A DNA stretch of 64,000 bases from Somniosus microcephalus (lineage: Eukaryota): assembly GCA_052327205.1 (NCBI GenBank), contig CM126217.1:71300001-71364000 (forward strand), written 5' to 3'. Under the pieces are notes generated by a model that worked only from the letters and a program-made list of their open reading frames with translations, did no database searches and had not been told where the DNA came from. Positions 2,666 through 58,404 of this stretch are shown one piece after another; position 1 is the first letter of the stretch, and the number at the start of each line of letters is the position of its first letter. The translations under genes were made by a program, and so were the position numbers.

Positions 2666-4047
2666 CACTTCTGATATAAGTTCTGTGTTTGAGTGAGTGA
2701 GTGTAATTATACAATATTCTATAACACTTACTAAGATATATTTCTCTCCTTGTGTTAATTGTCCTAGCTCCTAAGTCCTCTCTATATATATTCATTATAG
2801 CTTTCTCATTGAGCTTTAATTTCACTCCTTGGTATTTTCTCCAGCTCTCCTATTTCTGCAGAGTCTTGAAGCAAATACAGTGACCAATCTCTGATTCATG
2901 GATTGAACTATAGGTTATGTTATAACATAACAAAGCTGTGCACAATGTGAACTAATAGCTAACACAGTTTTATGCACTGAATGCTGTACTCTTTGTGAAA
3001 TAAATGATTATTTTTTATCTGACATTCAGTAAAAAGATTAGATCAGAATGCATAGGGGAGCATAAAACAAAATAGTAAAATATTTTACAGGCACATCAAT
3101 AAAAAATGGAATGGGTATAGGGCCATTAAGGGATAGACAGGATAATACCACACGTAATGATAGAGAGATGGCAGAAATATTAAATAATTTTTTTGCTTCA
3201 GTATTTACCAGGGAGATAGAATAGGTGGACATGACATTAGATGATGAGATGAGTAATGACATAAATGCATTTAAAATAAAGAGGGAATATATTAAATAAA
3301 CTAATCAAACTCAAAGAGGATAAGACCCCTGGTCCAGATGGATTGCATCCACGCATTTTTAAAAAATCTAGTGAAGAGATAGCAGAGGCTTACTGCACAT
3401 ACTTAATAATTCGTTAGAAAAAGTTGTGTCTGAGGACTGGTGGATAGCTAATATAATACCTATATTTAAGAAGGGGGATAGAACATGTCCAGGGAATTAT
3501 AGACCAGTCAGTTTAACATCGGTGGTAGAAAAAATAACAGAATCCCTAATAAAGGAGAAAATAGAAGACCATCTAGAAACCAAAAACCTAGTAATGAATA
3601 GTCAGCATGGATTTCAAAAGGGAAAGTCATGCTTGACCAACCTCTGAATTTTTTGAAGAGGTAACAGAGTGAGTAGACAATGGTAATGTAGTAGATGTAA
3701 TTTATCTAGATTTTCAAATGGCCTTCGATAAGGTACCTCATAATATGAACAAGGTCAGACAATGCGGAGTCAGGGGACAAGTAGCAGAATGAATAGTTAG
3801 CTGGCTTCAAGACAGAAAGCAGAGAGTAGGAGTAAAGGGTAGCTATTCACAGTGGCAGAAGGTGGGAAGTGGTGTTCCACAAGGATCAGTGCTGGGACCA
3901 CTGTTGTTCACAATTTACATTAATGATTTAGAATTTGGAATCAAAAACACAATTTCTAAATTTGTGGATGATATCAAATTGGGGGAATAGTCAATACTGA
4001 GGAGGACTGCAACAAATTACAGGAGGACATTAATAAACTTGCAGAAT

Positions 4048-5465
4048 TGTAGGGGGTGGCGCGTGAGCCCAGTCAGTTATGCCTCTGACTGCCCGTGAGC
4101 AGTTCGAATCGCTCCCACGCCCCTGAGATTCTCGACACCGGACTTAGGTACAGGTAGCGATACAGAAAAGACTCGAGTAGACAGGTGGTTTGGGTGTAAG
4201 CAAGACTCAGGATTTTATTAAACAGGAAAAGCTAATACAGTCTTAAGAGAAGTTACCAGTATATAGAATTACAGGCAAATACAAATAACTATACTTATAC
4301 AGGGAATGGGGAACACACGGCACATCGAGGGAAAACAACGATCTTAACAATCCCCTTATCCTTATCCCACCCCCTATACCTAACTAGATTAAGCTATGAG
4401 GGGCCAGAATTTATGCTCACCAATCAAAAGGGTTTGTTGGACTCAAAACAGTGGTGGGGCTCGGGGTTCGCTCTTGGTGCTCTCTGGAGCCTGCCGTCAT
4501 CACGTGGTCTCCGGGTGCTGCAAGGGCGTTGTCCAGGTTCGAGTACCCCAAAATTAAAGTCTCTGTTTGGGTACTTTACCTTGCAGGGATGGATTCCTCT
4601 TCTTCGACCGACAGTTTGAGTTTGCATGAAGATAGTCGCAGGTTGGCTGAGGCTGAAGGCCCGATGATTCGAAGCCTACCCTCAGTTGGTCTCCTCAGTT
4701 GGTCTTCCTCAGTTGGTCTTCCCTCCTCCCCTCGTCGCGTCCCGCCTCGCCTGGCCTGAATTGTCCGTGTCCGCCCGATGCAGTGCCGGGGCGATTTCCA
4801 GATGGAGTGGCAAAAGGCACGGGCAAAGGCCAGGGGGTAAGCGCGGGATGGGGAAAGAGCGACAGCCACGAGGGCGAGGGGCAGAAGAGCCGAGCAGAGC
4901 AGAGAGCAAGATTGCTACCCGGGGCCTTCAATTATACTCTTTTCGAAAACCCTTATCTGCGTGCCAAATCAGGTTAGTTCTTTGCCTTAATCTTGGCGGG
5001 CTATTTTAAATAATGGTAGCAAGCTATACTAACTGTTTTTAGATGGCTGGTAATCGCATCTACCGGCCCGATAATTGACTTGTTTTGTTATGAATGTTCC
5101 TTGATGGGCCTGTCCAGCCTCAATGGCTTTCTTAATCTGTTGCTGATTATATATGTAAACTGCTTGATGGCCTTAACTATAGGCCTAACTGGATTTAGAT
5201 TTGTCTCCAATTCGATCGAATACATAATTCAAAGCCCTGTCTGGTTTCAAAATACAAAGTCTCTCTTCACAGAAACTGCAGCTTTGGTTTCGATTTTTCC
5301 ACAAGCTGCCTGCATTGCAGAGTCCAAGTTTTAAAATCTCACAGGCTTTCTGCCACGAGGCACGGACACCATCTTGGGTACCCTTTTTGATTTAAAATGC
5401 CCACGCAGGGTCCTGTTTATTAATAACAACCTTTGGGGAAATGTAGAAATTTTGCAAATTTTACA
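4048..5465 (-). repeat. 3' LTR of provirus (1418 bp)
   Basis: Direct repeat of 13227-15457 without the MITE. Minus-strand TATA-like box at ~4932-4938 and AATAAA at ~4214-4219. The PPT (cagggggg ag on minus) abuts it at 5466-5475. Confidence 0.95.
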
Positions 5466-5808
5466 CTCCCCCCTGTGATACTAAAACTTGCTTGAAGTAT
5501 CATACTTTTAAGGTGAGCAAAATTTTTCTGACCCTCCATAGTCAACCTTCCCCTGTAATTACCTATCTAATATACCCATGACACATGCACTTCCCATTCC
5601 GCGAAAATGTAGTGTACATCAGCATACAGAGAGTAAAATTACAGACTTTTACACACACATCCAAGCATGGAGGGGTCCAACACCACTGCACCACTTGGTA
5701 CACATATCTTTATTAAACCGCGTTGCAAAAAAAACCAAAAGAAAAACCTTTATTAAAAATAACAAACACAAAGAAATGATCCTTTAATCAAAATACAGGG
5801 AAAAAGAC

Positions 5809-7650
5809 TTAAACCGGCATATCTCCCTCCACCTTTACATAATGTTCCTTCCAAATCCTCTGGTTTCGGAATTCTGACCACCGACCTTTTCCCTTACACT
5901 GAATACAAACTAAATACAACACTATCCCTAACTGACAAACCACGAGAATGTGGGAAGCCAGTCTGATCCACGAAGGGACCTCTATGTTATTGAAAATGTT
6001 CCACCAGGGTGGAGTCACTATATTCAATATCTTAGTCCCTATCTCTACTGTTTTCTGTTCGAGAGTGTAAAAATGTTTCTGTGAAACTATAACGGCTTTG
6101 AGTATTTTAGTAAGGTGTTCAGGGAGAGGGGGAATTTCCTAGCCAAAGTGCGCTACGTACTTTTGCAAATTCGTAAAATTCTCCTTCACAGTGAGGTGAA
6201 CAGTGGAGGGTTCAGGAATGGGGACAATTCACTCCTGGGCCACTTGAACTTCTGCCTCGGGTTTAAAACAGAAACTGCTGTCACTAACCGGACACCAGCT
6301 ATGCTGTCCATACTGGTAGTGGGACGCGCCGGTTGTGACACAATATGTCCTACCCCCTATATATGCTACCTGCGGGGGAACATGGCCTTGTGTCATTGCC
6401 TCCATGGTGCAATTTATAGGCTTCGTGCCAGCAGCTCTGAACCCACACAGCGGTTTCGAATAGGCATTCAAGTGCTGGGGACACAGGATTATGTGTGCTC
6501 CCCGGCTCCGGCACCCTGAGAGGTCAATACCTGTCATAGCGTGCTCCCACTTTATGACGTAAGGTGGGACCGCTGTGAAACGAATGTGTGCACCCCCCTG
6601 AATGACTCCAATGTTCTCCACCCTGTATACCGGTGCGATCGAGCCGTCCTACACATGACTGGCATCCTAACTACTACTCCCATGATTGTGTGGTTGGACC
6701 GCCCACAATCCACAGGGACTGGGTAGGCTTCGGAGGCTACCGGAGTTGGCATGGGCTCAATGCATTCTCAAAAGGGTGGAGGGCTGCGAGGTGCTTGTTG
6801 CTAATCCAGGAGGGGACCAAACCCTGTTTTAAATCCTCCAGATTACTGCGGCCCTCGCCCAGTAACCACGCCCTGTATAACACGCACACCTCATTCTGCG
6901 CAGCCTAGTCAGAAGCATTTTTGTCCTCCCTTATGAGAGCATTTACCGTCTTTGCGTGCTTTTCCAACTCGGCTATGATCTCCTGTAAATGGACCGTCAT
7001 GGCCTGGTCCTCATGCAACTCCGAGCCCACTACCTTGTTCTCGTCCAGTAATATTTTCTTTAACTGTGTTTTTAAACCGTTTATCTGGGTCTGCAGCTCT
7101 ATGTCATCCAAGCTGTTGATGACAGAGGACCCAGTATTAAACGCAGTAAAAATATCATTCCATACACCCCTTCTTTGCCTCCCTGCATTACCCAAAAATT
7201 CTCGGTGTGTGGTGTACAGTTCGGTCTTGTCCACGTGGGCAAAATCGAACTCGTAAAACTTCTTGAACATGTCCTTTAATAGGGCCTGGTATAACTGCTC
7301 TGTTTCTTTGGGGCACCACTACGGTAAATGTACCTTGGTGAGATTTAAAATCACTGAGGCTACCGCGTAGTGTACCCCCTGGTACAGCATCTGAACGGTG
7401 GGGACTAATACCAACCCATTCCCTGGTCCCTTGGTGGCGGTGGGGCAACCTTCCCTGGATAACCTCGCCACCTGCGCCGTGGGCGGGGGCTTACGGGGGC
7501 GGGTTACCAGCTCAGTGGCATTGACTGGGATCGGGGAGAATGGGACTGCACACGCCTTCAGGCTGGTATCCCACCTCATCCCATCCCCTGCGTCTTGCCA
7601 CTGCCGGTGGAAAATAATGGATACGCCTGTGGGGCAGACCTTCTCTGACC
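5809..7650 (-). pseudogene. env: env, class I fusion glycoprotein similar to Mononegavirales F; 4 internal stops and 2 frameshifts
   Basis: GLVLVPTVQMLY..ILNL..P*WCPKETEQLYQALLKDMF (F2-like); furin site RQRR; fusion peptide GVWNDIFTAFNTG; heptad repeat; Cys-rich DLSGC..IILCP region; TM ASHILVVCQLGIVLYLVCI; tail ends 5809. The 5' boundary is approximate. Confidence 0.8.
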
Positions 7651-10600
7651 CCAACATATCCTCGGACCTTACCCCAACTGGCTGCTTTCCCCTTTCCGGT
7701 GTAAACAACTTACACTGGTTGATATGGAACCATTTTGTACGCCGGGGCATCTTCACGGCGTATACCATGGGGCTGGCTTTATCTACAATACTGTAGGGCC
7801 CCATGTATAATGGCTCCAAACTACCTACTCGGGCATAATTCCTCACCATAACCTGATCTCCTATTTCCCACTCATGGTGCTTTCTCGGTTCGAGCAGCAA
7901 TCGGTTACTCCGATGCTGCCTTCCCATGTTCCCAGCCGCCTGCTCATGGACCTGCTTCAGGTGCTCAAAGAGGTTTCGGGCAAGCCTGTCCCGGTTTACC
8001 TCCCTGAGCTGACCCTCCGTGAGCACCGGGGCTAGTACATGGGTGGGGGTCTGCATAACCCAGCCAGTCATTAGCTCGTACGGGGAATACCCCGTGCTTT
8101 TAGACTGGCTGGCCCGGATCCCCATCAAAACCAACGGTAGGACTTCGGCCCATTTACGGGGCGAGTCCGCCGTTTCCTTTCTTAACCTTTCTTTCAGGGT
8201 CCGATTCATGCGTTCTACAATCCCCGATGACTGGGGGTTGTGGGTTACGTGCCATTTCCCCTCAATGCTTAGCAGCATCAGGGTGTTCTGCATCACCTGT
8301 CCACTGAAGTGGGTCCCTTGGTCGGACTCCACAAACTGTGGTAGTCCCCACCTCGAGAACACTTCCCGGACTAGGATCCTGGCAGTACCCAGAGCTGTGG
8401 CAGTTCTGCAGGGAAAGGCTTCTACCCACTTGGTAAACACGTCCACCAGGACTAGGCAGTACTTATAGCCTCCCTGAGCAGTGGGCAGGGGCCCGATGTA
8501 GTCGACTTGTATCGACTGTCATGGTCCCTCTACCCTCTTGATGTGTCCCATAGGGGCCTTCCTTTTGTGGGTGTCAGGGTTGTTCGCAGCGCACACAAGA
8601 CAGCCTGCGCAGAACTCGCAGACATCGTCCCTGAGTCCCGGCCACCATCCCGCCTGTTCCAGCCGTTGCCAGGTGGTCTCAGGCCCAGGGTGTCCTGCTC
8701 CTGGACCCTCATGGGCCAGTTGAAGGAATTCCCTCTGGTGCTGCTGCGGCACAACCCACTGTTCCCCCCGGAACAGCATGCCCTCTTTAACGGAGACGGT
8801 CGCTGTGCCGTACGGACCTTCTACTCCTTTTCCCTCAGCTACAGCGCTGAGGACTGCTTTGAGGACGGGGTCTTGGGCTTGGACCGTCTTAAGGTCTGGG
8901 GCTAACGCTACCCCTACACTCCCTTGGGTCCCGTCCCTACCTCTGACCGCCGCCATGGGCCTGGACCCAAATGGGTCCCAGAAAATGCCTGCGCGGGCAC
9001 CCTCCTTGGCGAGCAAGTCAGCCTGCTGGTTGCCTTGGCCGCGGGGTTCTGTGGAGGAATGGGCTTTCACCTTGTGGATGAAAACCTCCCCTTCCTCCCC
9101 CACTGCTGCCAGGATCTTTTCCAGCAGGGGCTTTACTGTGAGGGGTCTCCCGTCAGCGGAGGTGTATCCGCGGCGGGACCAGATGGCCAGGTACTCCGTA
9201 CACGAATTGCACATAAACATGCTGTCTGAGCAAATTGTGTAGGGGGTGGGGAAGATTTCGGGGTGTGTAACAACGTACACCACCGCGGACAGTTCAGCCT
9301 GCTGGGCGCTCATGGTGCTGGGGAGCTTAATTGCCAGGGCAATGTTTGCCGCTGGGTCGTAAACTCCACACCCCGTGAGACGCTTGCCAGCAGATACCGT
9401 GCTGGAGCCGTCCACATAGATTTCGCGGCCTGTGGGATGTATCCCGGCCCATAAACCTATGTTTACTTCCCAAACCCCTTCAATGGAACACCGATGGGCT
9501 GTTCCAGGATATACCATGTTGGCTGCGAGCTTTGGCTCACAGAGACCCTTCACCTTCAGATCCATCTGTGAGAGGAGCAAGGTCCAGCGGGTAATGCGGG
9601 CACTGCTCACTGTCCCATCCTTGATCCTCCCGTCCAGAAGAATCTGGGTGGGTGTGTGATGGGTGAGGAGGGTGATGGGAGAGGTGCCTGTGAAGATCAA
9701 TGATCTTTTCACAGCCCAATGTGTGGCCAAAAGATGCCGCTCACAATTGGAATAGCTCCTTTCCACATCTGTGAGTATCCTGGAGGAGTAGACCACCGGC
9801 CGCAGCCGGCCGTGCCGCTCTTGGAGCAGCACAGCACTGAGGCTGTCTCCGCTGGCTGCTACCTCCAGGAAAAACTCTTTCCCCCCATCTATGGCCCCTA
9901 AAGCTGGCGCGGTCTGCAAGTCCTTCTTGAGCCTGACAAATGCTGCCTGGCAACCCTCATCCCAAAGCCACTCCACTCCCTTGTGTAGGAGTCGGAGCAG
10001 AGGGGCTGCGGTGGCTGCATAGTCCTCAATAAAGTTTCTACAGTACCCGGTCAGCCCCAGGAACGAACTCACACCCGTTACTGTGTTAGGGACTGGTAGT
10101 TCTTGTACTGCCTCCCTCCTAGCCTTATCTATGGCCCTTTCTCCAGCGCGCACGGTCAGACCGAGGAATTTCACCTCCTGCTGGCCGATCTGCGCTTTCC
10201 TGGGATTTACCTTGAAGCCCTTCTGTCCTAGCAGCTCCAGCAGTTCGGCCAATAGCGGGCCATGCTCCTCTTTCGAATCAGTGAACAGGAGCAGGTCATC
10301 TACATATTGAACCAACTGTCTGGGCTGGCTAAAATCCTTCAAACTGTCGGCCATGCACTGATGGAAAATGCTGGGGCTGTTGTGGAAGCCCTGTGGCAAA
10401 CAGTTCCACGTGTACTGTTGCCCTTTAAACGTAAAGGCAAACTTGTACTGATCCTCCCTCCTTAAAGGGATGGACCAAAACCCATTTGAAATATCCAGCA
10501 CCGTAAAAGTGGTTGCGGATGCGGGAATACTCCCAATGAGGTCGGCAACTGCTGCTACTGTGGGTGCGCAGGCTGGGATGTTGTTGCTATTGAGCACCCG

Positions 10601-11377
10601 ATAGTCCACCGTGGCCCTCCAGGAATTGTCCGGCTTTCTGACCGGCCATAACGGAGAAATCACGTGGGTAGCTATCGGTCTCAGAACTCCCTGCTGCACT
10701 AACGAGGACATGGCTGCTTCCATGTCCGGCTCTGCTTCCCTGGGGAAGTTATACTGTTTCTGTGGTCGGGCCATGGGGTCCCCGTCTACGCTGACCTCAA
10801 ACCCTGTGACCCTCCCGCAGTCGTGTTTGTGAGTGGCAAATGTGGCCAGGTGGGCCTGCACAAATGCCTGGAACTCTGGTGGGGTGTTGCTGACCATGAG
10901 CCCGAGGTTATAATCCTCTTTGGGCTTCATGGTGCAGAGGGTCCCCTTCCCTTCCTTTCCCGGGATTACTACGATCTCACCGTTCTTTACTGTACCTGCC
11001 CCCCAAAGGCAGTGATTCCTCAAATCCACTAGGATCCCGTGACCTACGATAAAGTCGGCCCCCAGGACCCCTCTTCCACCCTCCACGTCCCATTTCATCA
11101 GGACACACGTCCACTTAGAGCAGAGCGGTCCTATCCGAATGGTGAGCGGGATGGAAAACGAGCCGGCCTGTTCCCTACCCGTGTACCCCGATAGACTGTA
11201 TGGGACCCCTCTGGAGAGAGGTGAGGCGATGGGGTTAGCTGAGAAGACCACGGTGCATGGTGCCCCCGTGTCTAACAGATAGGTCCTCGTCACCTTCTCC
11301 ACCTCCATCTCCAAAAGGGGTCTTTTCCACTCATCATATCGGAGCGAACACAGATAAACAGGCTGCGCTGGCTCTAG
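7650..11377 (-). pseudogene. pol: pol: protease, RT, tether RNase H, RNase H, integrase; one internal stop (8519-8521)
   Basis: LLDTGA; LPQGF..YVDD; degenerate FLEVAAS RNase H; intact YVDGS..AQQAEL..SDS..GNQQAD RNase H; HHCC (H..H..CLVC); VDYIGP..SDQG..VERMN; GPY motif. Confidence 0.93.
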
Positions 11378-13152
11378 TCACAGCTGTGGGTTGGATGGGG
11401 CTGACGGAGTGATAGCACCAGTGGCGGCTGCTACTCTCCCCTGGCCAGTCAGTAAGGACCTCATGGCGTCCAAAAGTGACTCGACCTCTGCGGAAGGGGT
11501 CCCTGCCCCCGCCTTTTGGGCTGGGGCTGTGGGATGCTTTCCCTTGTTATCCTTCCAAGGGTGTTTGCACTCCTTCCGCCAGTGACCATCCTTTCCACAC
11601 CCGTAACAATTGGTCTTTGTGCTGGGGGGGTTACTCCCTTCCTGGTGCCACTCTTTCCTACCCGGTCCGGGTTTTATCTCATGCACCTTCCCCTTGGGTG
11701 GGTGTGCATCAGCTCCCCTACCATTTTTGTAAGCCAGAGTGAGCTGCCTAATTACCGTGATCTCTGTGGTCTGGGGATCTTTGGGGTTGAACCAGGCTTC
11801 TGCCTTGGCCCGGACCTGTGGCAGGCTGTTCGCCACCAGGCAATGGAGCCAATGGGCCAGGAGGTCCCTGTTCAGGAACACTCGGTCCGGCGTCCCCGGG
11901 CAGGCCCTCCGGTACACCGGCCACAGCCGGTCCGCAAAAGCCTTCGGGGTTTCCTCAGAAAGCTGGATCGTCTTCTCCAACTGGGAGAAGGGACTTCCCT
12001 CATCCATCCCCATGGCCTCCAGAACCGCATCTCTAAGGTCCTCGTACTCGCTCTGCCCCCTTTTACACTCGTCAGAGAGGGATTGGAGGAGATTACTCTC
12101 CAGGGAGAATAGCAGCATCTTGGCCTTCTCAGCGTCATCGCAGTCGTTGACGCTGGCGGTCTGCTCTATTTCCCTGAAGTGGATCGAGGGGTCTCCTTTT
12201 GCGGAAAGCTTCGGGATATGGTTGACCATAACCCTGAGCTGCTAGGTGTTAAAGGGTAACACGAACTGGTTTTGGAGGGGTCCCTCATTGTCACCATTGG
12301 CGGGTGGGCCGAACCTCTGATGCCGCGCTGGGCACATCGGTCTCGGCTCCGACCTCTCGGGCAGGGTTTGCTCTACCTCCGCCTCCACCTCTGGCTCCAC
12401 TTTGGGTTCCACCCCCGGTTCCACCCCGCCTTGCTGCCAAACCTCGCTGAAACTTGGCGCTACGGGTGGTGGCCGTGAGGTCTCCTCTCTCTCAACCGGG
12501 TTGTCCCTAAGCACTACCGGTGACGTTGGAACTGTCCTCCCCTTGTTCCCCATTAAATCTGCCTGACCTGCCTTTGGGCTTATGAGGCATACCATGCCTT
12601 TTGCCTTCCGGAGGGCCCGGCTCAGATTTTCTATCCTCTCTCTACAGGGGCCGTGATCTGCCTTCTCAAACCCCTGTTCACTTGTGAGCTTGTAAGCGGC
12701 TTTTACCTCCTGCACTTTCTCTTCCTGTTCCCTAATCTGCCTTGCCAAGCGGGCGTTTTTCTCCCGCAACCTTAACTCGTTTTCCTTGGCCTCGGTGACT
12801 TGGCACCGTAGGTATTCCAACTGGGCCTTGTGTTCTCCCACTAAATGCACTCTTTCCTGGTTTAAAGCCTGCAAAGATACTAATAAGTTCTCCCCTGCAA
12901 GAGCCTTATCCTGGATCTCCAGGGCTGACTCCCTTAACTCGACTGCCTATGCTGCAACGAGCCTGTCCAAAAGCTGGACCTGCTTTTTAAAGCACATCAG
13001 CCAAACTGCCTTCTCTAAGGACTTCATGTGTTCCTTTCCCTCTGTCCACTTAGCTGCTGCATCTACCGATGCCCAGCCTTTAACAGAGTGGTGATCCACT
13101 TCTTAGTGATATTCACCTTGCTAAACACATAATCAGAAATCCTTTCCTCCAT
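11378..13152 (-). pseudogene. gag: gag with N-terminal coiled coil, capsid-like region and one CCHC knuckle
   Basis: ATG at 13152; one frameshift and two stops; heptad-rich 12242-12874; CYGCGKDGHWRKEC; ends TGA at 11378-11380. Confidence 0.88.
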
Positions 13153-13205
13153 CAAGGTTTGCTCATCTGAACCATTGTCTACTGTATCGCAACCCTGTTG
13201 CCGGG

Positions 13206-13223
13206 GTCCTGCCGCGGTCGCCA
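13206..13223 (-). promoter_or_regulatory. Primer binding site, tRNA-Arg(TCG)
   Basis: The + strand GTCCTGCCGCGGTCGCCA matches the 3' 18 nt of vertebrate tRNA-Arg-TCG as I recall it; it lies 3 nt from the 5' LTR. Confidence 0.85.
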
Positions 13224-13226
13224 TTA

Positions 13227-15457
13227 TGTAGGGGGTGGCGCGTGGGCCCTGTCAGTTATGCCTCTGACTGCCCGTGAGCAGTTCGAATCGCTCCCACGCC
13301 CCTGAGATTCTCGACACCGGACTTAGGTACAGGTAGTGATATAGAAAAGACTCGAGTAGACTGGTGGTTTGGATGTAAGCAAAACTCAAGATTTTATTAA
13401 ACAGAAAAATTAACACAGTCTTATGAGAAGCTACCAGTATATAAAATTACAGGCAAATACAAATAACTATACTTATACAGGGAATGGGGAATACATGGCA
13501 CATCGAGGGAAAACAACTATCTTAACAATCCCCTTATCCTTATCCCACCCCCTATACCTAACTAGATTAAGCTATGAGGGGCCAGAATTTATGCTCACCA
13601 ATCAAAAGGGTTTGTTGGACTCAAAACAGCGGTGGGGTTCGGGGTTCGCTGTTGGTGCTCTCTGGAGCCTGCCGTCGTCACGTGGTCTCCGGGTGCTGCA
13701 AGGGCGTTGTCCAGGTTCGAGTACTTTACCTTGCAGGGATGATTCCTCTTCTTCGGCCGACAGTTTGAGTTTGCATGAAGATAGTCGCAGGTTGGCTGAG
13801 GCTGAAGGCCTGATGATTCAAAGCCTACCCTCAGTTGGTCTCCTCAGTTGGTCTTCCTCAGTTGGTCTTCCTCAGTTGGTCTGCCCTCCTCCCCTCGTCG
13901 CGTCTCGCCTCGCCTGGCCTGAATTGTCCATGTCTGCCCGATGCAGTGCCAGGGTGATTTCCAGATGGAGTGGCAAAAGGCACGAGCAAAGGCCAGGGGG
14001 TAAGCGCGGGACAGGGAAAGAACGACAGCCATGAGAGCGAGGGGCAGAAGAGCCGAGCAGAGCAGAGAGCGAGATTGCTACCCGGGGCCTTCAATTATAC
14101 TCTTTTCGAAAACCCTTATCTGTGCGCCAAATCAGGTTAGTTCTTTGTCTTAATCTTGGCGGGCTATTTTAAATAATGGTAGCAATCTATACTAACTGTT
14201 TTTAGATGGCCGGTAATCGCATCTACCGGCCCGATAACTGACTTGTTTTGTTATGAATGTTCCTTGATGGGCCTGTCCAGCCTAGATGGCTTTCTTAATC
14301 TGTTGCCGATTATATATGTAAACTGTTTGATGGCCTTAACTATAGACCTAACTGGATTTAGATTTGTCTCCAATTCAATCTAATACATAATTCAAAGTCC
14401 TGTCTGGTTTCAGAATACAAAGGGCTAGATTTTCCTGGACCCGTCAGGCGGGGTTTCAGTCGTGTGGGGGGGGAAATCCCGAATTTGGGGGGCCCGACAC
14501 CATCCCGCCCAAAACCCCGCCCCACGTAAGTTTTAGGGGCAGCAGGTACCCGCCCCGCACTGGGACCCGCTGAAACCAGGCGGGAAGGGATTAGTGCCAA
14601 TTAACTGCCCAACAGGCAGCTTTTAGCCTAATCCCTATTTTGAGGGGTTTCATGTGGGTTTCCCGACGGCTCCAAACCATGCCAGGTTAGAGCAGGCGGG
14701 CCGTCGGGTTGAAGGAGTTGGAGGGGTCGCGATGTCGGCGCTCAGGTGAGTGATGAGTGCATGAGTGTAAAGGTAAGTGTGTTTGGTGTGTCTAAAGTGT
14801 GTAAAGAACTTTTACTTACCTGTACTTACCTTAACAGCCTTTCTTCCTGGAGCTGTCGGGAGCCCATCACTCAGCTGGCACTTAAAGCTGAATGGCTGCG
14901 ATCTGTGAAAAGTGACAGCCTTCAGCTTTGAGTGCCGGTAAGAGTTCTAACTGAGTCTGTGCAGAAGGACTCATGTCAGAACTCAGACTGTCAGTGTTTC
15001 ACAGCTTCAAACAGCTGTCAAACACTGATATTTCATCTGTCAAGAACTCTTGACAGATGAAATTGCAGTCTGTGACGTCACCTGTTGCCGGGTGGCCCTT
15101 AATTGGCCTGCTGAGCCCGCTGGACGGGCTCAACAAGGTCAATCAAGGGAAAATCGCGTGGATTGGCCGGACGTCGATGTAGGCGGGTCAAAAACCCGAA
15201 AGGGGAAGTCCCGCCTTCTTCCCGACAGGTTTGGGAAAATCTACCTCAAAGTCTCTCTTCACAGAAACTGCAGCTTTGGTTTCGATTTCTCCACAAGCTG
15301 CCTGCGTTGCAGAGTCCAAGTTTTAAAATCTCACAGGCTTTCTGCCACGAGGCACGGACGCCATCTTGGGTACCCTTTTTGATTTAAAATGTCCACGCAG
15401 GGTCCCGTTTATTAATAACAACCTTCGGGGAAATGTAGAAATGTTGCAAATCTTACA
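13227..15457 (-). repeat. 5' LTR of provirus, interrupted by a MITE
   Basis: Colinear with 4048-5465 apart from substitutions, a ~28-bp indel, 4 vs 3 copies of ctcagttggtct(t)c and the MITE. Confidence 0.95.
14422..15247. mobile_element. Harbinger-type MITE inserted in the 5' LTR
   Basis: 14-bp imperfect TIR gggctagattttcc / ggaaaatctacctc; 3-bp TSD AAA; the empty site is visible in the 3' LTR (tacaaagtctc). Confidence 0.9.
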
Positions 15458-17115
15458 GAATGGGCATATCATTGGCAAATGAAGTTCAACACAGATAAAT
15501 GTGAGGTCTAACATTTTGGTAGGAAGAATAGGGAGGTCACTTATTACTTGGAGGATGCAAGTCCAGGTGGGTTGAGGAACAAAGGGATCTCGGAGTACAA
15601 ATACACAAATCACTAGAAGTTGCGACACAGGTTAGCAAGGCCATAAAAAAGCAAACCAAGCACTACGGTTTATTTCTAGAGATATAGAATTGAAAAGTAG
15701 GGAAGTTATGCTAAACCTGTATCGAACCTTGGTTAGACTACACTTAGAGCACTGCGTACAGTTCTGGTCGCCATATTGTAAAAAGGATATAGAGGCACTG
15801 GAGAGGGTGCAGAGAAGATTTACAAGGATGATACCAGAAATGTGAGGGTATACATATCAGGGAAGGATGAACAGGCTGGGTCTCTTTTCTCTTGAAAAAA
15901 GAAGGCCGAGGAGTGACCTAATAGATGTCTTTAAAATTATGAAAGGTTTTGATAACGTGGATACAGAGAGAATGTTTCCACTTGTGGGGAAGAGCATAAC
16001 TAGAGGCCATCAATATAAGATAGTCGCCAAGAAATCCAATAGGGAACTCAGAAGAAACTTCTTTACCCAAAGAGTGGTGAGAATGTGGAATTCGCCACCA
16101 CAGGGAGTGGTTGAAGCGAAAAGAATAGATGCATTTAGGGGAGACTAGACAAGCATATGAGGGAAAAGGGGAATAGAGGGTTATGCTGATAGATTTAGAT
16201 GAAGAAAGACGGGAGAAGGCTCGAGTGGCATAAATGCCGGCATGGGCTGGCTAGGCTGAATGGCCTGTTTCTGTGCCGTATATCCTATGTAACCCTATGT
16301 AAAGGTTTGGGGAAGCCTAATTTCTGATTCAAATTCGCAACCAGCAACTGTGTCACTTCATCTTTCATGCTACTGCACCAGTTATTCATCAAAAGAAACC
16401 ACCTACTGTGCACAAACTGCTTATGCTAACAGGTTGAAAGAAGATGCGCCCACTTATGGAAGCTGAGTGTTGATTTGAATAAGACAGCTCATAAGGCAAC
16501 TTGCTTAGTAATATCAGAAGTAGTGGGGGAACAGATCATGTCCATATAAAAATCATTTTGTAAAAATGTGTTACTCAGAGTAAAACTGTAGTGGACTTGA
16601 TATCTGTTGACTACTGTTGCAATATTTTTATTAGCAGGCTGCTCTATTAACAATCAAGCCTTACAATCAGAATTCTATCAACAGATATTCTTAATAGCAG
16701 TGGGGCAACACAACAAGCAGCAAGGCTTCACCATATAGCGATGAAAGATCCTACCCATCTCTATAAAGTAGTTGTCCACTGCTTTCAGGTAAGTGGAAAT
16801 ATTGACTTTGAAATTACCTTACTGTGTCAGTATAACAATAAGAATGAATTAGTGCCATGAACCAGATGATGGGAGGCTGTTCTGTGTATTAATTACATAA
16901 AATACAGTTTTTTTTGGAGGTTGAGGTTATTCTATATATGATCCAATATTAAAGGGTTTGAATGTACTGAACGATAACATGCTTTGTAGAGGCTGATCAC
17001 TTTTTGCAGATTTATAGAAAAGATGTATGGAAAATAACAAGAACTTTGTATGTCCATAGCATACAGAAAACAAGAATGAGCAAAATTTTGTATTTTAGTG
17101 GCCCACAGAAATATT

Positions 17116-17415: not shown

Positions 17416-18220
17416 CTCATAGAGTCATAGAGTTATACAGCACAGAAAGAGGCCCTTCGGCCCATCGTGTCCACGCCGGCCATCAAGCCCTGTCTATTCT
17501 AATCCCATTTTCCAGCACTTGGTCCGTAGCCTTGTATGCTATGGCGTTTCAAGTGCTCATCTAAATACTTCATGAATGTTGTGAGGGTTCCTGCCTCTAC
17601 CACCCTTTCAGGCAGTGAGTTCCAGATTCCAACCACCCTTTGGGTGAAAAAGTTTTTCCTCAAATCCCCTCTAAACCTCCTGCCCCTTACCTTGAAACTA
17701 TGCCCCCTGGTTATTGACCCCTCTACTAAGGGGGAAAGTTCCTTTCTATCTACCCTATCTATTCCCCTCATAATTTTGTACACCTCAATCAGGTCCCCCC
17801 TCAGCCTTTTCTGCTCTAAGGAAAACAACCCCAGCCTGTCCAGTCTCTCTTCATAGCTGAAGCGCTCCAGCCCAGGTAATGTCCTGGTGAATCTCCTCTG
17901 CACCCTCTCCAATGCAATCACATCCCTCCTATAGTGTGGTGACCAGAACTGCACACAGTATTCCAGCTGTGGCCTAACTAGCGTTTTGTACAGCTCCATC
18001 ATAACCTCCCTGCTCTTATATTCTATGCCTCGGCTAATGAAGGCAAGTATCCCATATGCCTTTTTAACCACCTTATCTACCTGTCCTGCTGCCTTCAGGG
18101 ATCTATATACATGCACACCAAGGCCCCTCTGATCCTCTGTCCTTCCTAGGGTCCTACCATTCATTGTGTATTCCCTTGCCTTGTTAGTCCGTCTAAAATG
18201 CATCACCTCACACTTTTCAT
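17416..18220 (-). mobile_element. CR1 LINE 3' part
   Basis: ORF 17499-18227 LVRPQLEYCVQFWSP...RKNFFTQRVV; (ctctatga) tail. Confidence 0.92.
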
Positions 18221-18294
18221 CTATCATCAGATACTGAGCATTTGGACAAGTGTGAGCTGATCAAAATGAGTTAGCATGAATTTGTGAAGGGTAG

Positions 18295-23797: not shown

Positions 23798-25570
23798 CAT
23801 AAGAACATAAGAAATAGGAGTAGACCATTTAGCCCTTCGAGCCTGCTCCGCCATTCAATAAGATCATGGCTGATCTTCTACCTCACCTCCACTTTCCTGC
23901 ACTATCCCCATATCCCTTAATTCCCTTAATATTCAAAAATCTATCGCTCTCTGTCTTGAATATACTCAATGACTGAGCCTCCACAGCCCTCTGGGGCAGA
24001 GAATTCCAAAGATTCACCACCCTCTGAGTGAAGAAATTTCTCCTCATCTCAGTCCTAAATGGCCGACCCCTTATTCTGAGAGTGTGACCCCTGGTTCTAG
24101 ACTCCCCAGCCAGAGGAAACATCCTCCCTGCATCTACCCTGTCAAGCCCTGTAAGAATTTTGTATGTTTCAATGAGATCACCTCTCATTCTTCTAAAATC
24201 TAGAGAATATAGGCCTAGTCTACTCAATCTCTCCTCATAGGACAATCTCTCCACCCCAGGAATCAGTCTGGTGAACATTCGTTGCACTCCCTCTATGGCA
24301 AGTATATCCTTCCTTAGGTAAGGAAACCAAAACTGTACACAATACTTCAGGTGTGGTCTCACCAGGGCCCTATATAATTGCAGTAAGACGTCTTTACTCT
24401 TATACTCAAACCCTCTTGAAATAAAGGTCAACATACCAATTGCTTTCCTAATTGCTTGCTGTACCTGCATGTTAACTTTCAGTGATTCGTGTACAAGGAC
24501 ACCCAGGTCTCGCTGAACACCAACATTTCCCAATCTCTCACCATTTAAAAAATACTCTGCTTTTCTATTTTTCCTACCAAAGTGGATAACTTCACATTTC
24601 TCCACATTATATTCCATTTGTCATGTTCTTGCCCACTCACTTAGCCTGTCTTTCTCTCCTTGAAGCCTCTTTGCATCCTCCTCACAACTTACATTCCCAC
24701 CCAGCTTTGTATCATCAGCAAACTTGGATATATTACATTTGGTCCCCTCATCCAAATCATTGATATAGATTGTGAATAGCTGAGGCCCAAGCACTCATCC
24801 TTGCAGGAGCCCACTAATTACAGCCTGCCAACCCGAAAATGACCTGTTTATTCCTATTCTCTGTTTTCTGTCCGTTAACCAATCCTCAATCCATGCTAGT
24901 ATATTACACCCAATCCCATGAGCCCTAATTTTGTTTAATAATCTCTTGTGTGGCACCTTATCGAATGCCTTCTGAAAATCCAAATACACCACATCCACTG
25001 GTTCCCCCTTAGCTATTCTACTAGTTACAACCTCAAAAAACTCTAACAGATTCATCAAACACGATTTCCCTTTCATAAATCCATGTTGACTCTGCCCAAT
25101 CATATTATTTTTTAAGTGCCCTGTTACCATGTCCTTAATAATAGATTCTAGCATTTCCCTACTACTGATGTCAGGCTAACTGGTCTGTAGTTCCCTGTTT
25201 TCGCTCTTAAATAGTGGGGTTACATTTGCTAGCTTCCAATCTGTGGGAACCATTCTAGAATCACTTATTCTGAGACTGTGACCCCTGGTTCTAGACTCCC
25301 CAGCCTGGGGGAACATCCTCCCTGCATCTATCCTGTCAAGCTTGTAAGAATTTTGTATGTTTCAATGAGATCACCTCTCATTCTTCTAAACTCCAGAGAA
25401 TATAGGCCTAGTTTACTCAATCTCTCCTCATAGGACAATCCCCCCATCCCAGGAATCAGTCTGGTGAACCTTCGTTGCACTCCCTCTGTGGCAAGTATAT
25501 CCTTCCTTAGGGAAGGAGACCAAAATTGTACATAATACTCCAGGTGTGGTCTCACCAGGGCCCTATATAT
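23798..25570 (-). mobile_element. CR1 LINE (23798-25260) plus a second CR1 fragment (25260-25570)
   Basis: ORFs 23883-24617, 24795-25154 and 25328-25555 carry CR1 RT motifs; (ttcttatg) tail. Confidence 0.92.
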
Positions 25571-42149: not shown

Positions 42150-45100
42150 CGTTACAAACAGTTCCCATGGATTGGCGGGTAGCTAATGTTACCCCATTAT
42201 TCAAAAAAGGTGGTAGAGAGAAAACGGGGCATTATAGACCGGTAAGCCTGACATCGGTAGTGGGGAAAATGCTAGAGTGTAGGAATGCCTAGTCCCTATC
42301 CAAAAGACTGAGGTCCACTCAGGCGATCAAATCAACGAGGTTTAATAAAAAGTAACAGAGTTTAACAGCTAACTACAGGAGAACATCGAATATAGGTCTA
42401 GTCAGTTCGGAGGCTCCACGAGGACTGCTAGGGCGGTCCCATGGCTGACGTCATGACGTCATCACGTTTTTCCCGCCGGTGGGGGATCACGTGATGAACG
42501 GCGTGACGTCATCGCGTTTGCCCGCGCTATTAAAGTGATCGCGCTCTGTACATGTAAACAGTGAAAATAAGATACAGACTCAGGCTGCAGCCAACATATT
42601 ATTAAAGGGAATTATATACAATTGATTGGAGCCCCTTAGTGGCTCCACCACATGTGCCCCCCCAGAATTGTCCTTAATAGCAAAAGTAAAATGGCGAGAA
42701 GGCCTGACAAGCCTGTCAGATCGACTTCTGTAGCCTTGAAGTGGAAGCTGATGGATGGCGGGCGAGCTGGCGGGCAGTTGCTTTTGATCTGGCACAGCGA
42801 CTGTGGGCGGTCGGCCACGTTTCGGCAGTTGTGCGATCTCGACTGGGCGGTCAAGGTCCAAGTGAGCAAGCTTCAACCGGTCAACCGAAATGTGGTCCGG
42901 TTTACTTCCAACATCGACTGAAAAAGATTTGTCTCCCGGCTCTATCACACGGAAAGGACCAGTGTAAGGGGGTTTGAGCGGGTCCCGATGAGCGTCGCGG
43001 CGGATAAACACATAGTCGGCGTTCTTCAGCTCAGCTGGGACGTGGGAGCTTTGCAAGCCGTGATGCGACGTAGGCACTGGAGTGAAACTTCTGGCTGCCT
43101 CCTGGTGGCTGATGAGCTACTGGGACGCGGACCATGGCTTTGTTGGAGATGGAAGGAAATCCCCTGGTACGCGTAGCGGCTGGCCATACACGTGCTCCGC
43201 CGAGGACGATTGAAGATCTTCTTTAGGTGCCATACGAAGACCCAAAAGGACCCATGGAAGCCTGTCCACCCAGCCCGCGCCTTGAAGGCTGGCTCGCAGT
43301 GCGGCTTTGAGCGACCTGTGGAATTGTTCGCACAGGCCGTTCACCTGTGGATGGTAGGCAGTGGTGCGATGTAGCTTGACGCCGAGCCCCTGAGCCACAG
43401 CGTTCCAGAGCTCCGAAGAGAACTGCGGCCCACGATCGGACGAGATGTCTGCCGGTACCCCGAAGCGGGCGACCCAAGAGGAGATGAATGCCCTGGCGAT
43501 GTCTGCGGGAGTGGTGGAAGACAGAGGAACCGCCTCCGGCCATCGAGTGGTGCGGTCCACCATTGTAAGAAGATGAGTAAACCCGTGCGAAGGCGGAAGT
43601 GGCCCCACCAGGTCCACATGCACATGATCAAACCGACGTTCCGGAACGGCAAAACTGGCCAATGGAGCCTTAACATGACGCTGTACCTTGGCCTTTTGGC
43701 AGACCACGCAGGTGTTGGCCCAGTCGCGAACATCCATGTGCATGCCCTGCCACACGAATTTGGACGACATCAACCATTGCGAGGCCTTCATGCCAGGGTG
43801 CGACAACCCGTGTATGGCGTCAAAAACTTTTCAGCGCCAGGCGACCGGGATGATAGGGCGAGGATCTCCTACGGAGACGTCGCAGAGTAGCGTAGTGCCC
43901 GCGGCATGGAATTTGACGTCAGCCGCTTGGAGGCTAGAGGGGTTGGTTCTGTAAGATTGGACCTCCGGATCCGAGGCTTGACCCGCAGCCATGAGGGCAT
44001 AGTCGATGCCGAGCTGGACTGCATGAACGGTTGCGCGGGAGAGGCAATCCGACACCAGGTTGTCCTTACCGGACACATGCTGAATGTCAGTGGTGAATTC
44101 TGAGATAAACGTCAGCTGACGTTGTTGCCGAGCTGACCACGGTTCGGCGGTCTTGGCCATAGTGAACGTTAGTGGCTTATGGTCCACAAAAGCCGTGAAC
44201 GGACGTCCTTCTAGCAAGAACCGGAAATGGCGGATGGCCAGAAAAAGGCCCAGCAACTCCCGGTCAAACGTGCTGTACTTTCGTTCGTTTCGCCGCAGTT
44301 GACGGCTGAAAAACGCCAGCGGTTGCCACGTCCCATGCACCCACTGTTCCTGCACTGCGCCGATGGCGTAGTCTGACGTGTCGGTGGTAAGGGCAATGGT
44401 GGCACCTGGCAGCGGGTGTGCCAGCATGGTTGCATTGGCTAAAGCGCCTTTTGTGTCGACGAACGCCCGGTCCATTTCGACCGTCCAGCTGATCGGATCC
44501 TTGCCGGACTTGCCCTTGAGGGCCTCGTACAGGGGCTGCATGAGCCGAGCTGCATTAGGGACGAACTGGTGATAAAAATTTACCATCCCGAGGAACTCCT
44601 GCAGGGCTTTGACGGACTGCGGGCGCGGGAACGAAGTAACTGCCTCCACCTTCATTTGCAGGGGAATTGTGCCGTCTGATGTGATGCGATGGCCTAAAAA
44701 ATCAATCTGCTGCAGGCCGAACTGGCACTTGGCCGGGTTGATGAGGGTGCGCAAATGGCAGATGTGCTCTTTATTAGGGCTGGCGATGAGGATGTCGTCG
44801 AGGTAGACGAATAGAAACTTGAGGTCGCGAAGTACGGAGTCCATCAAGCGCTGGAAAGCCTGTGCAGCATTCTTCAATCCAAACGGCATCCGCAGAAATT
44901 CAAACAAGCCGAATGGGGTGATGACTGCAGTTTTCAGGACATCTTGCGGGTGTACGGGGACCTGGTGGTAGCCACGGACAAGGTCGACTTTTGAAAAAAT
45001 GGTATTTCCCGCCAAATGTGCAGAGAAATCCTGAATATGAGGGATCGGGTACCGATCAGGAGTAGTGGCATTGTTCAGGCGTTAGTAGTCGCCGCAAGGC

Positions 45101-48100: not shown

Positions 48101-48203
48101 CAGGGTACTGAGTTTGGATGATCAGCCATGATCTAATTGAATGGCGGAGTAGACTCGAGGGGCCGAATGGCCTACTCCTGCTCCTATCTTCTATGTTTCT
48201 ATG
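42150..48203 (+). mobile_element. CR1 LINE split by a Gypsy insertion (42150-42277, 46867-48203)
   Basis: The reading frame GKMLE|SIIKD continues across the AGAG TSD; ORFs 46849-47457 and 47385-48131. Confidence 0.93.
42278..46862 (-). mobile_element. Full-length Ty3/Gypsy LTR retrotransposon, CsRn1-clade-like
   Basis: LTRs 42278-42652 and 46493-46862; TSD AGAG; PBS TGGTGACCCCGAC (tRNA-Trp, 46479-46491); gag from ATG 46445 with LPQFW and CIYHARFGAKARCCRTPC (CHCC); DTGA, YLDD, RNase H, IN with GPF; several stops and frameshifts. Confidence 0.93.
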
Positions 48204-55552: not shown

Positions 55553-55756
55553 TTTTATCTTCAGCAATATGCATTGATATGTAATCATGCCCTTTTATTA
55601 ATATTTATTTTAGTTAGTTACATCATTACAAATAAACAGGCAGCTTTAACTTTATGGAAAAAAGAAAATACTGCAGATGCTGGAAATCTGAAATAAAAAC
55701 AGAAAATGCTGGAGATACTCAGCAGGTCAGGCAGCATCTGTGAAGAGAGAAACAGA

Positions 55757-55791
55757 GTTAACGTTTCAGGTCGATAACCTTTCGTCAGAAC
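55757..55791 (-). ncRNA. Minimal type I hammerhead ribozyme (Penelope-associated)
   Basis: gtt-CTGACGA-aaggttatcgacct-GAAACGTT-aac. Confidence 0.7.
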
Positions 55792-57516: not shown

Positions 57517-57551
57517 GTTCTGACGAAAGGTCATCGACCTGAAACGTTAAC
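57517..57551 (+). ncRNA. Minimal type I hammerhead ribozyme (Penelope-associated)
   Basis: gtt-CTGACGA-a-aggtc-atc-gacct-GAAACGTT-aac: intact core, 5-bp stem II, palindromic stem III. Confidence 0.75.
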
Positions 57552-58404
57552 TTTGTTTCTCTCGTCACAGATGCTGCCTGACCTGCTGAGTATCTCCAGC
57601 ATTTTCTGTTTTTATTTTTAACTTTTATGAAATGTCACCGAGAGTATATTTTTTAAATTTTAGACTCAGTCACATCCATGTAAAACACTGGGGTTTACAA
57701 AGCAATCGGGGAACTTGAAATCCTCATTGACTGGATACACATGTATGCACAGTGAACAGGAAGGGGATGAACAGTGCGCCCCAGCGAAATAAATCCATTG
57801 GACAAAAGGCCACACATCTGAATTAGATGGCATTTCTTCCAATTGTTGCAATGGTCATTGTTTCATTGGAATAATTATTTAACCAAGACACAAATTGCCG
57901 CTGCTCAGCTCTCTGAACTGTTCTCTTTTCCCAAAGTATTATGAGCTAACAGTGTGTGCACAACGTGTTTATTTAAAATCATTTACGCAGAACCTATTTG
58001 ATTTATTTTTCCACATAAATGATCTTAATTGTAATAATATGTTCTTAAACGTAAACTTGCCAGAAATGTATGAATAAATACATACAACAGCATCCATTGC
58101 TATATAGCTAAAAATAAGCAACAGTGCTCAATTTGTTTATTGTTTTAAATACGAGAAAATAACCTAAACCCAATACACTAAGGGTGTAATACCGTAATGT
58201 AGAATATATCCATTTTTACTAAGGCATTAATCAAAAGATCTGCAACTCCTTGTAAGAAAAATGAAACATAAATAAAGGGGGCAATTATACTGTCACTGTT
58301 GTATTAAAGCAATGCCAAGTTGACAGTAAAAATCAAGAGTCAGGTCCTGATCTGACTTTGGAATACAGAGGTGTGAGATTCTCTTGGGAAGACCACCTTA
58401 TACT

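What the first reader, a model, noticed from the sequence alone, without database searches (positions are those of the whole stretch)
4048..15457. Near-complete lokiretrovirus-like provirus with a paramyxovirus-F-like envelope
Seen: both LTRs, TSD, an 18-nt tRNA-Arg PBS, gag-pol-env. Env has an F2-like segment (C-x6-Y-x3-L helix), an RQRR furin site, fusion peptide, heptad repeat, Cys-rich domain and TM, and no retroviral ISD/CX6CC is evident. Known: lokiretroviruses are a sister lineage of retroviruses with Mononegavirales-F-like Env. Inference: this is a shark member that can be reconstructed by repairing a handful of lesions.
Basis: partly seen in the sequence, partly recalled or inferred. 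Interest (0 to 1): 0.8.

Follow-up and report, generated by a model that had tools for sequence, protein, structure and literature searches.

The report
Shark provirus bridging retroviruses and lokiretroviruses
This is a broken endogenous retrovirus copy, likely from a shark, whose reverse transcriptase groups with ordinary retroviruses rather than lokiretroviruses, while its envelope is predicted to fold like a measles-type fusion protein and its integrase and envelope resemble those of lokiretroviruses, so it likely marks an early retroviral lineage that kept ancestral parts.

Summary
The provirus is real (minus strand; LTRs, 4-bp TSD, perfect tRNA-Arg(TCG) PBS, gag-pol-env), but it is not a lokiretrovirus and not near-complete. 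Its RT sits inside canonical Retroviridae (100/96; grouping with three true lokiretroviruses rejected, p-AU 0.0005); the nearest named virus is snakehead retrovirus (43%), the nearest relatives are shark, frog and coelacanth ERVs. The Env is F-like (model of a sister copy: Foldseek 7e-11 to hPIV3 F), but so are snakehead, walleye and foamy Envs, so this does not define lokiretroviruses. This copy lacks about 1.33 kb (integrase tail, Env signal peptide and an Ig-like domain) found in 20 of 20 sister copies and has ten further breaks. At least 1,469 LTR-PBS junctions exist genome-wide; LTR divergence is 4.4%. What remains interesting: integrase (48-49%), tether, RNase H, UGA-CUAG gag stop and Env are all closer to lokiretroviruses than to snakehead retrovirus, at odds with the published view that the two Env types are unrelated. 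SnRV-like ERVs in a cartilaginous fish are published (2015), and this scan reached a similar reading twice on other genomes.

The parts
15458..15461 (.). target-site duplication, 4 bp (upstream)
   Evidence: 4-bp TSDs also in 3 other copies whose two ends were printed (L031, L037, L053)
13227..15457 (-). 5' LTR (TG...CA), 2,231 bp including the insertion below
   Evidence: K2P to 3' LTR 0.044 over 1,393 columns
14423..15246 (.). 824-bp foreign insertion in the 5' LTR, short imperfect terminal inverted repeats and a short duplication at its edges; likely a non-autonomous DNA transposon
   Evidence: absent from the LTRs of the 20 other copies, 76% match to flank DNA of one locus
13206..13223 (-). 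primer binding site, 18 of 18 complementary to host tRNA-Arg(TCG)
11378..13152 (-). gag: coiled-coil region, capsid-like region, one CCHC zinc knuckle; broken by one frameshift (near 13.07 kb) and two stops (12949, 12244); natural UGA-CUAG stop at 11380-11378
   Evidence: gag stop shared by 13 of 13 copies covering it
7658..11377 (-). pol in frame with gag: protease, RT (YVDD), tether (degenerate RNase H), RNase H, H2C2, integrase core, GPY/SH3-like end; one premature stop (8521); integrase tail lost in the deletion
7657..7658 (-). junction of a ~1.33-kb deletion that joins integrase to the middle of env
   Evidence: 20 of 20 other copies carry extra sequence here
5809..7657 (-). remaining env: F2-like segment, furin site, fusion peptide, heptad repeats, Cys-rich beta domains, TM, short tail; four stops (7321, 6907, 6231, 6141) and two frameshifts (near 6740 and 6639)
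   Evidence: fold from a sister copy
7169..7180 (-). furin-type cleavage site RQRR
   Evidence: R-x-K/R-R in 16 of 21 copies
5466..5474 (-). polypurine tract
4048..5465 (-). 3' LTR, 1,418 bp
4044..4047 (.). target-site duplication, 4 bp (downstream)

Best explanation
This is a dead, internally deleted copy of a high-copy endogenous retrovirus family whose RT belongs to canonical Retroviridae, likely an early-branching lineage of the snakehead-retrovirus grade, and whose envelope is predicted to be an F-type class I fusion protein with an N-terminal Ig-like domain. Shown: tRNA-Arg(TCG) PBS, PPT, 4-bp TSD, gag and pol in one frame split by a shared UGA-CUAG stop, dual RNase H, a separate env frame with signal peptide in sister copies. 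Inferred: the parent virus primed on tRNA-Arg, made Gag-Pol by stop-codon readthrough, made Env from a spliced RNA, was cut by furin into a surface part (Ig-like domain plus F2-like segment) and an F1-like TM part, and fused membranes by the paramyxovirus-type refolding; it spread in the germ line by reinfection, since env was kept in many copies. The likeness of its integrase, tether, RNase H and Env to lokiretroviruses is most simply read as ancestral parts kept in both lineages (inferred).
For: RT tree, 43 of 69 extracted rows: window RT inside a 30-row canonical-retrovirus branch 100/96, three lokiretroviruses outside; family+loki rejected, p-AU 0.0005; family+frog/coelacanth+SnRV not rejected, p 0.13; RT identity 52-54% frog/coelacanth ERVs, 43% SnRV, 34-35% loki, 33-35% foamy, 27-34% Gypsy. 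Shares with SnRV a coiled-coil Gag, one zinc knuckle and in-frame gag-pol (passages of PMC2717909) and a PBS 13 of 18 alike. Env: HHalign to loki Env E 2.9e-15, to SnRV Env 2.9e-6; F part against references: loki 3.6e-13, 12.7-kb epsilon-type 5.8e-8, SnRV 4.9e-5, foamy 5e-4 and 8e-3, gamma-, beta- and two other epsilon-like Envs 0.04-0.77, shuffles scoring 14-26. Model (pLDDT 62, 80-94 in the core): Foldseek 7e-11 hPIV3 F, VIA Z 12.1 NDV F (rmsd 20, 383 aligned), Z 8.8 foamy Env, Z 5.6 Ig domains over residues 31-178 (rmsd 3.0, 80-85 aligned). Env relatives in six shark/skate genera, three frogs and coelacanth.
Against: The RT tree does not resolve a family+SnRV clade (open fork), so 'SnRV-like' is a grade, not a shown clade. 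Gag has no significant BLAST match to SnRV Gag beyond the zinc knuckle. RNase H groups with loki and foamy and not with SnRV (96/97, long-branch warning); integrase is 48-49% to loki against 40% to SnRV. Only three loki RTs (two for IN/RH, one Env), all of the teleost type, and no Odin, ERV-L, fish foamy-like or CmiERV sequence were in the trees. The Ig-like call is weak (Pfam E 0.28, Z 5.6; pLDDT 50-59). The SnRV Env model was built with shark and loki Envs in its alignment, so one search is not independent. No expression or function was tested.
Confidence: 0.78

Rival explanations
1. The lineage is an old recombinant: a canonical-retrovirus gag-PR-RT joined to a tether-RNase H-integrase-env 3' half exchanged with lokiretroviruses (either direction).
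For: Everything 3' of the RT core is nearer loki than SnRV: tether 82-84 bits against 29, IN 48-49% against 40%, best IN tree found holds family+frog/coelacanth+loki together (lnL 5.7 higher than the free search, p-AU 0.70, group named after seeing the tree), Env E 3.6e-13. Domain swaps are documented in this group (PMC7947760).
Against: An IN tree with canonical retroviruses held together without loki is not rejected (p 0.149); tether scores to Gypsy RNase H are nearly as high (78 bits), which points to slow divergence from the ancestor; the loki-like UGA-CUAG gag stop lies 5' of RT; foamy, SnRV and walleye viruses also keep F-type Env; Odin RH and IN are reported as sister to loki (PMC9040795 abstract).
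Confidence: 0.14
2. It is a true lokiretrovirus, the first from a cartilaginous fish (0 of 6 such genomes had one in the 2020 screen).
For: F-like Env with RxKR-type site, dual RNase H, loki-like IN, same gag stop context; PMC7947760 supplement Fig. S1.
Against: RT monophyly with loki rejected; 34-35% RT identity to loki while loki rows are close to one another (93% L109/L112); loki PBS differs; the genome's best matches to a loki RT are only 36-41% among 149 scored and a loki RT motif pattern has 0 hits.
Confidence: 0.03
3. It is a foamy-like (clade Tu) ERV.
For: Long LTR, YVDD, 4-bp TSD, RNase H groups with foamy and loki, foamy Env is a structural match (Z 8.8).
Against: RT 33-35% to foamy and not joined to them; Gag has a CCHC knuckle and is in frame with pol; no accessory frames 3' of env. 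Fish foamy-like ERVs were seen only as published rows, not placed in my tree.
Confidence: 0.04
4. It is a Gypsy/errantivirus-type element with a baculovirus-F-like env.
For: Baculovirus F and errantivirus Env clusters score as high as paramyxovirus F in the Atlas (0.92-0.93) and baculovirus F appears in BFVD at 2.6e-10.
Against: RT is separated from ten Gypsy rows by two starred branches; dual RNase H. The baculovirus hits reflect one shared F superfamily.
Confidence: 0.01

Closest known systems
Snakehead retrovirus (SnRV) and SnRV-like ERVs: clade Huo of Xu et al. 2018 (PMC6001957), CmiERV lineage I of elephant shark (Han 2015, PMC4422223)
   Same: Nearest named RT (43%); coiled-coil Gag with one zinc knuckle; gag-pol in one frame; arginine-type PBS (13 of 18 alike; SnRV's assignment to Arg is recalled); Env homologous and F-like.
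   Different: Different PBS sequence; UGA-CUAG against UAG-G gag stop; IN, RNase H and tether nearer loki; shorter Env (783 against about 1,100 aa); no 3' accessory frame; 1.4-kb LTR; clade with SnRV not resolved. CmiERV-I itself was not compared.
Lokiretroviruses (Wang and Han 2020, PMC7947760; renamed lokiortervirus in PMC9040795)
   Same: F-like Env (best sequence match), dual RNase H, IN 48-49%, RNase H in the loki+foamy group, UGA-CUAG gag stop.
   Different: RT outside the loki clade, different PBS, extra N-terminal Ig-like Env domain, no separate smc frame seen.
Unnamed 'NYNRIN-like' ERV proteins of Heptranchias, Pyxicephalus, Rhinophrynus and Latimeria in NCBI
   Same: Same lineage: RT 52-54% (frogs, coelacanth), 91% in the RNase H-IN stretch (Heptranchias); grouped 92/87.
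   Different: Database gene models without viral annotation; I found no paper describing them in the searches named.
Foamy virus Env and paramyxo-/pneumovirus F (PDB 8rm0/8rm1, 1ztm, 3maw)
   Same: Predicted fold of residues 245-714.
   Different: 9-13% identity; N-terminal part is Ig-like rather than a foamy RBD or absent.
ERV3/ERV-L and ERV4 (Chong et al. 2014, PMC4299795)
   Same: Non-class I/II retroviral grade.
   Different: Those have 5-bp TSDs, no zinc finger and no GPY/F motif; this element has a 4-bp TSD, one knuckle and a GPY motif.

Membership tests
Lokiretrovirus | RT falls in the loki clade, sister to canonical retroviruses | tested here: not met
   (p-AU 0.0005; three loki rows)
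Lokiretrovirus | Env with signal peptide, RxKR site, fusion peptide, coiled coil, TM and similarity to Mononegavirales F | tested here: met
   signal peptide only in sister copies
Lokiretrovirus | dual RNase H (tether plus new RH) | tested here: met
   shared with all retroviruses
Lokiretrovirus | RNase H groups with foamy viruses (group I) | tested here: met
   96/97 with long-branch warning
Lokiretrovirus | integrase of the loki/CGIN1 type | tested here: inconclusive
   48-49% to loki; both groupings pass the AU test; CGIN1 not in the set
Lokiretrovirus | optional smc gene | tested here: inconclusive
   no separate frame seen; coiled coil lies within gag
Canonical Retroviridae | RT inside the retrovirus clade | tested here: met
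   100/96
Canonical Retroviridae | LTR-PBS-gag-pol-env-PPT-LTR with TSD | tested here: met
SnRV-like (clade Huo) | RT forms a clade with SnRV | tested here: inconclusive
   nearest named RT, open fork; not rejected p 0.13
SnRV-like (clade Huo) | coiled-coil Gag, one zinc knuckle, in-frame gag-pol with readthrough stop | tested here: met
   readthrough itself inferred
SnRV-like (clade Huo) | arginine tRNA primer | tested here: met
   SnRV PBS is a different sequence, its Arg assignment recalled
Foamy-like (clade Tu) | RT clusters with foamy viruses; Gag without CCHC; separate pol | tested here: not met
   (mammalian foamy rows only)
Gamma-type Env | ISD and CX6CC in TM | tested here: not met
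ERV3/ERV4 | 5-bp TSD, no zinc finger, no GPY/F | tested here: not met
Metaviridae (Gypsy/errantivirus) | RT within Ty3/Gypsy, single RNase H | tested here: not met

The most novel reading that the evidence does not exclude
This shark-frog-coelacanth lineage is the bridge between lokiretroviruses and canonical retroviruses: a canonical RT carried together with the ancestral tether, RNase H, integrase, UGA-CUAG readthrough and F-type Env that lokiretroviruses also have. Env was then acquired once, as an F-type protein, before the two groups split (Odin lost it; gamma- and beta-type Envs are later replacements), overturning the published preference for independent origins; the lineage also added an Ig-like domain as its likely receptor-binding part.
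Probability: 0.35. Interest if true: 0.75.

Novelty: new variant of a known kind. Interest (0 to 1): 0.5.

Why it matters
As a locus it is one dead copy among more than a thousand. As a lineage it bears on where the retroviral envelope came from. Wang and Han (PMC7947760, PMC9040795) argued from the lack of detectable similarity between loki and canonical Env that the two were gained separately. Here a retrovirus with a canonical RT has an Env alignable to loki Env over about 355 columns, and the same profile reaches SnRV, a walleye-type and foamy Envs but no gamma or beta Env. That makes a single F-type origin testable with ordinary trees. It also shows that an F-like env is no marker for lokiretroviruses, which stay unreported from cartilaginous fishes in what I searched.

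Tried and rejected
Pfam finds no fusion-protein family in the window's env pieces or in three unbroken sister frames; a true loki Env reaches PF00523 only at E 0.002. Profile search of PDB sequences with the Env alignment gave nothing under E 0.1. Plain BLAST and a 5-sequence profile missed the SnRV Env homology; it appeared only with the 35-sequence profile. The apparent single gag-pol-env frame in the window suggested a Pol-Env fusion; rejected, it is made by the deletion. The extra 824 bp in the 5' LTR is not the long-LTR variant of L025/L027 (no match). A search for longer Pol relatives gave 58 hits, nearly all Gypsy, no named retrovirus. First IMG/VR scan with the single Pol found nothing. 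The SnRV genome paper (Hart 1996) is not held; its features come from passages of PMC2717909 and from L065. No look-alike among earlier scan findings by sequence. No reads were laid, no complex predicted, no Env tree built (17-19% identity). Papers seen: PMC7947760 parts 1-3 of 4 of the text and supplement parts 1, 8, 67, 68 of 82 plus two searches (last 18 PDF pages not read by the tool); PMC4422223 part 1 of 2; passages only of PMC9040795, PMC6001957, PMC2717909, PMC4977317, PMC9967133, PMC13709493, PMC10435555, PMC12583693, PMC11521997, PMC10699275, PMC4299795 and bioRxiv 2023.10.26.564294 (its supplements are closed). Calcraft 2024 and Fernandez 2024 seen only as cited in PMC12583693. Searches for prior description: (0 papers); none listed a paper stating that SnRV-grade Env is F-like or loki-related, but subscription journals are mostly missing.
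Full report
Anatomy. The element lies on the minus strand, 15457 to 4048, inside a CR1-type LINE whose reading frame continues across the insertion. The LTRs (2,231 and 1,418 bp) begin TG and end CA and are flanked by a 4-bp duplication; three other copies whose ends were printed also show 4 bp. The length difference is an 824-bp insertion with short inverted ends in the 5' LTR, absent from the LTRs of 20 other copies. The 18-nt PBS is the exact complement of a host tRNA gene end plus CCA; the gene pattern occurs 378 times in the genome and ARAGORN calls tRNA-Arg(TCG) in 2 of 4 loci scanned. Pfam gives RT, tether, RNase H, H2C2 and integrase core, and a weak zinc knuckle in gag.

State of this copy. 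I compared it with the 20 best of 42 env matches (40 of 7,417 candidates were scored), each read as it lies. The gag stop at 11380 is shared by 13 of 13 copies and the env stop at 5811 by 20 of 20, so these are natural; stops at 12949, 12244, 8521, 7321, 6907, 6231 and 6141 are shared by 0-3 copies, and there are frameshifts near 13069, 6740 and 6639. All 20 copies carry extra sequence at 7657/7658, 1,319-1,331 bases in the three measured. In them this stretch holds a low-complexity integrase tail and the start of a separate env frame: signal peptide plus about 195 residues. The copy is therefore dead in all three genes and not near-complete. LTR-LTR K2P is 0.044 (0.027-0.059 in 11 copies with both LTRs in reach): about 10 My at the mammalian rate used in PMC7947760, about 100 My at the shark rate assumed in PMC4422223 (my arithmetic). 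Two exact LTR-end/PBS patterns match 1,380 and 89 places, reversed controls 0, a floor that may include a sister family.

Host. The assembly has 6.45 Gb. Nearest Pol is from Heptranchias (91% over 19% of the query) and nearest Envs from Pristiophorus and Rhinoraja (60-69%); a Pristiophorus Env piece matches a second family here at 78-86%. A shark is likely, inferred from ERV relatives only; no host gene was tested.

RT placement. The loki paper defines the group by RT and found it in 0 of 6 chondrichthyan genomes. The published RT rows show loki-specific motifs (PFG[Y], RG.L.YVDD, QWC) that the window lacks, while the SnRV row resembles it. I fetched references by motif: L065, whose RT reads as the paper's SnRV row; gamma, epsilon, foamy and beta-type genomes; and three contigs whose RTs read as teleost-type loki rows (L109, L112, L115). 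Of 69 extracted RT rows I kept 43, leaving out three frameshifted or partial rows and 23 near-duplicates. The window RT lies within a 30-row canonical branch (100/96); loki rows lie outside; it groups with four frog and coelacanth ERV proteins (92/87) in an open fork with SnRV, foamy viruses and the orthoretroviruses. Holding family and loki together costs 41.9 log units, p-AU 0.0005; holding family, frog/coelacanth and SnRV together is not rejected, p 0.13. A loki RT query finds nothing above 41% in this genome (149 scored).

Other domains disagree with RT. Integrase core: 48-49% to loki, 44-50% to the frog/coelacanth proteins, 40% to SnRV; loki IN groups with the frog/coelacanth proteins at 89/92 (39 rows). 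The best IN tree found has family, frog/coelacanth and loki together (p-AU 0.70; group chosen after seeing the tree), but keeping canonical retroviruses together without loki also passes (0.149). RNase H: family, frog/coelacanth, loki and foamy form a 96/97 branch without SnRV, with a long-branch warning, and plain identity is higher to SnRV (32%) than to loki (27%) (28 rows). Tether scores: loki 73-84 bits, best Gypsy 78, SnRV 29. The gag stop context is UGA-CUAG in the window and in loki L112, UAG-G in SnRV; the two loki PBSs differ wholly from the window's, SnRV's differs at 5 of 18. UGA-CUAG as a readthrough signal is recalled knowledge.

Envelope. For searches and the fold I used unbroken natural env frames of two other copies. 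A profile search of 1.84 billion proteins gave 49 hits; 20 were looked up and are from Mustelus, Chiloscyllium, Heterodontus, Scyliorhinus, Pristiophorus, Heptranchias, Pelodytes, Mantella, Xenopus, Latimeria, or unnamed. The 35-row profile aligns to loki Env (98.5%, E 2.9e-15, 354 columns, 18%) and SnRV Env (88%, 2.9e-6). Restricted to the F part: loki 3.6e-13, the 12.7-kb epsilon-type genome 5.8e-8, SnRV 4.9e-5, two foamy 5e-4 and 8e-3; four other Envs (gamma, beta, two epsilon-like) 0.04-0.77 (9 of 9 shown). The model (mean pLDDT 62, pTM 0.44) matches hPIV3, RSV, henipavirus and NDV F (Foldseek 7e-11 onward; VIA Z 12.1-9.8, foamy Env 8.8), and in BFVD also lispivirus glycoproteins, baculovirus F, WEHV1, WDSV and feline foamy Env. 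Residues 31-178 match Ig domains weakly (Z 5.6, rmsd 3.0), in line with sub-threshold Pfam Ig hits in relatives and a UniRef 'Ig-like' name. A model of the SnRV Env C-terminal half also matches F proteins (E 1e-5), but its alignment held shark and loki Envs.

Comparison with what is known. SnRV-like ERVs are published for the elephant shark (PMC4422223) and clade Huo spans all vertebrate groups (PMC6001957). That foamy Env shares ancestry with F is published (cited in PMC12583693). PMC9040795 states that canonical and loki Envs share no detectable similarity and prefers independent gains; my go against the premise. My nine literature searches listed no paper making this link for SnRV-grade ERVs. 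Two earlier scan notes on other genomes reached the same 'SnRV-type, not loki' reading; I read them.

Verdict. Observation partly confirmed; interpretation partly supported. It works like a lokiretrovirus in entry and in several Pol domains but is not a member. New variant of a known kind; interest 0.5; bridge-lineage reading probability 0.35, interest 0.75 if true.

Noticed in passing
G000 genome-wide: A second F-Env ERV family, 78-86% to a Pristiophorus protein and only about 60% to this family's Env, with at least 66 matches, many in long stop-free frames; likely younger than the window's family.
   Followed up: no
G000:C35, about 1.58-4.38 Mb: Large tandem arrays with ~1.62-kb period carrying the tRNA-Arg(TCG) 3' end; 378 matches genome-wide.
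   Followed up: no
window 14423-15246: 824-bp insertion in the 5' LTR with short terminal inverted repeats; 76% match to flank DNA in L037; likely an unnamed MITE.
   Followed up: partly
L025/L026 and L027/L028 3' LTRs: About 760 extra bases at LTR position ~207-211, almost the same place as the window's insertion but not matching it; possible longer LTR variant or insertion hot spot.
   Followed up: partly
window 42580-46535 (-) and 49410-53279 (-): Two different Ty3/Gypsy elements with gag, PR, RT, RH and IN frames broken by few stops.
   Followed up: no
window 58452-60269 (-); 56259-57211; 46816-48131; 17499-18260; 23883-24620: RTE-type LINE, a Penelope-like GIY-YIG piece between inverted repeats (55691-57617), and several CR1-type LINE pieces; family names from motif recall. 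No host gene exon was evident among frames of 150 aa or more.
   Followed up: no
L109, L112, L115: Near-whole lokiretroviruses sit in metagenome contigs; L112 has gag and pol in one frame with a UGA-CUAG stop.
   Followed up: partly
L065:6131-9535: SnRV Env N-terminal half has repeated Ig-like-looking motifs by eye (D/N-x-Y-x-C-M-W) similar to the shark Env's; Pfam gave no Ig hit.
   Followed up: partly
P0222 cluster: Sixteen near-identical 677-aa Env relatives in Mantella aurantiaca suggest a recent expansion of this lineage in a frog.
   Followed up: no
Walleye epsilonretrovirus Envs (WEHV1 2.9e-10, WDSV 7.5e-7) match the F-like model, whereas two other epsilon-like Envs tested by sequence did not.
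   Followed up: partly
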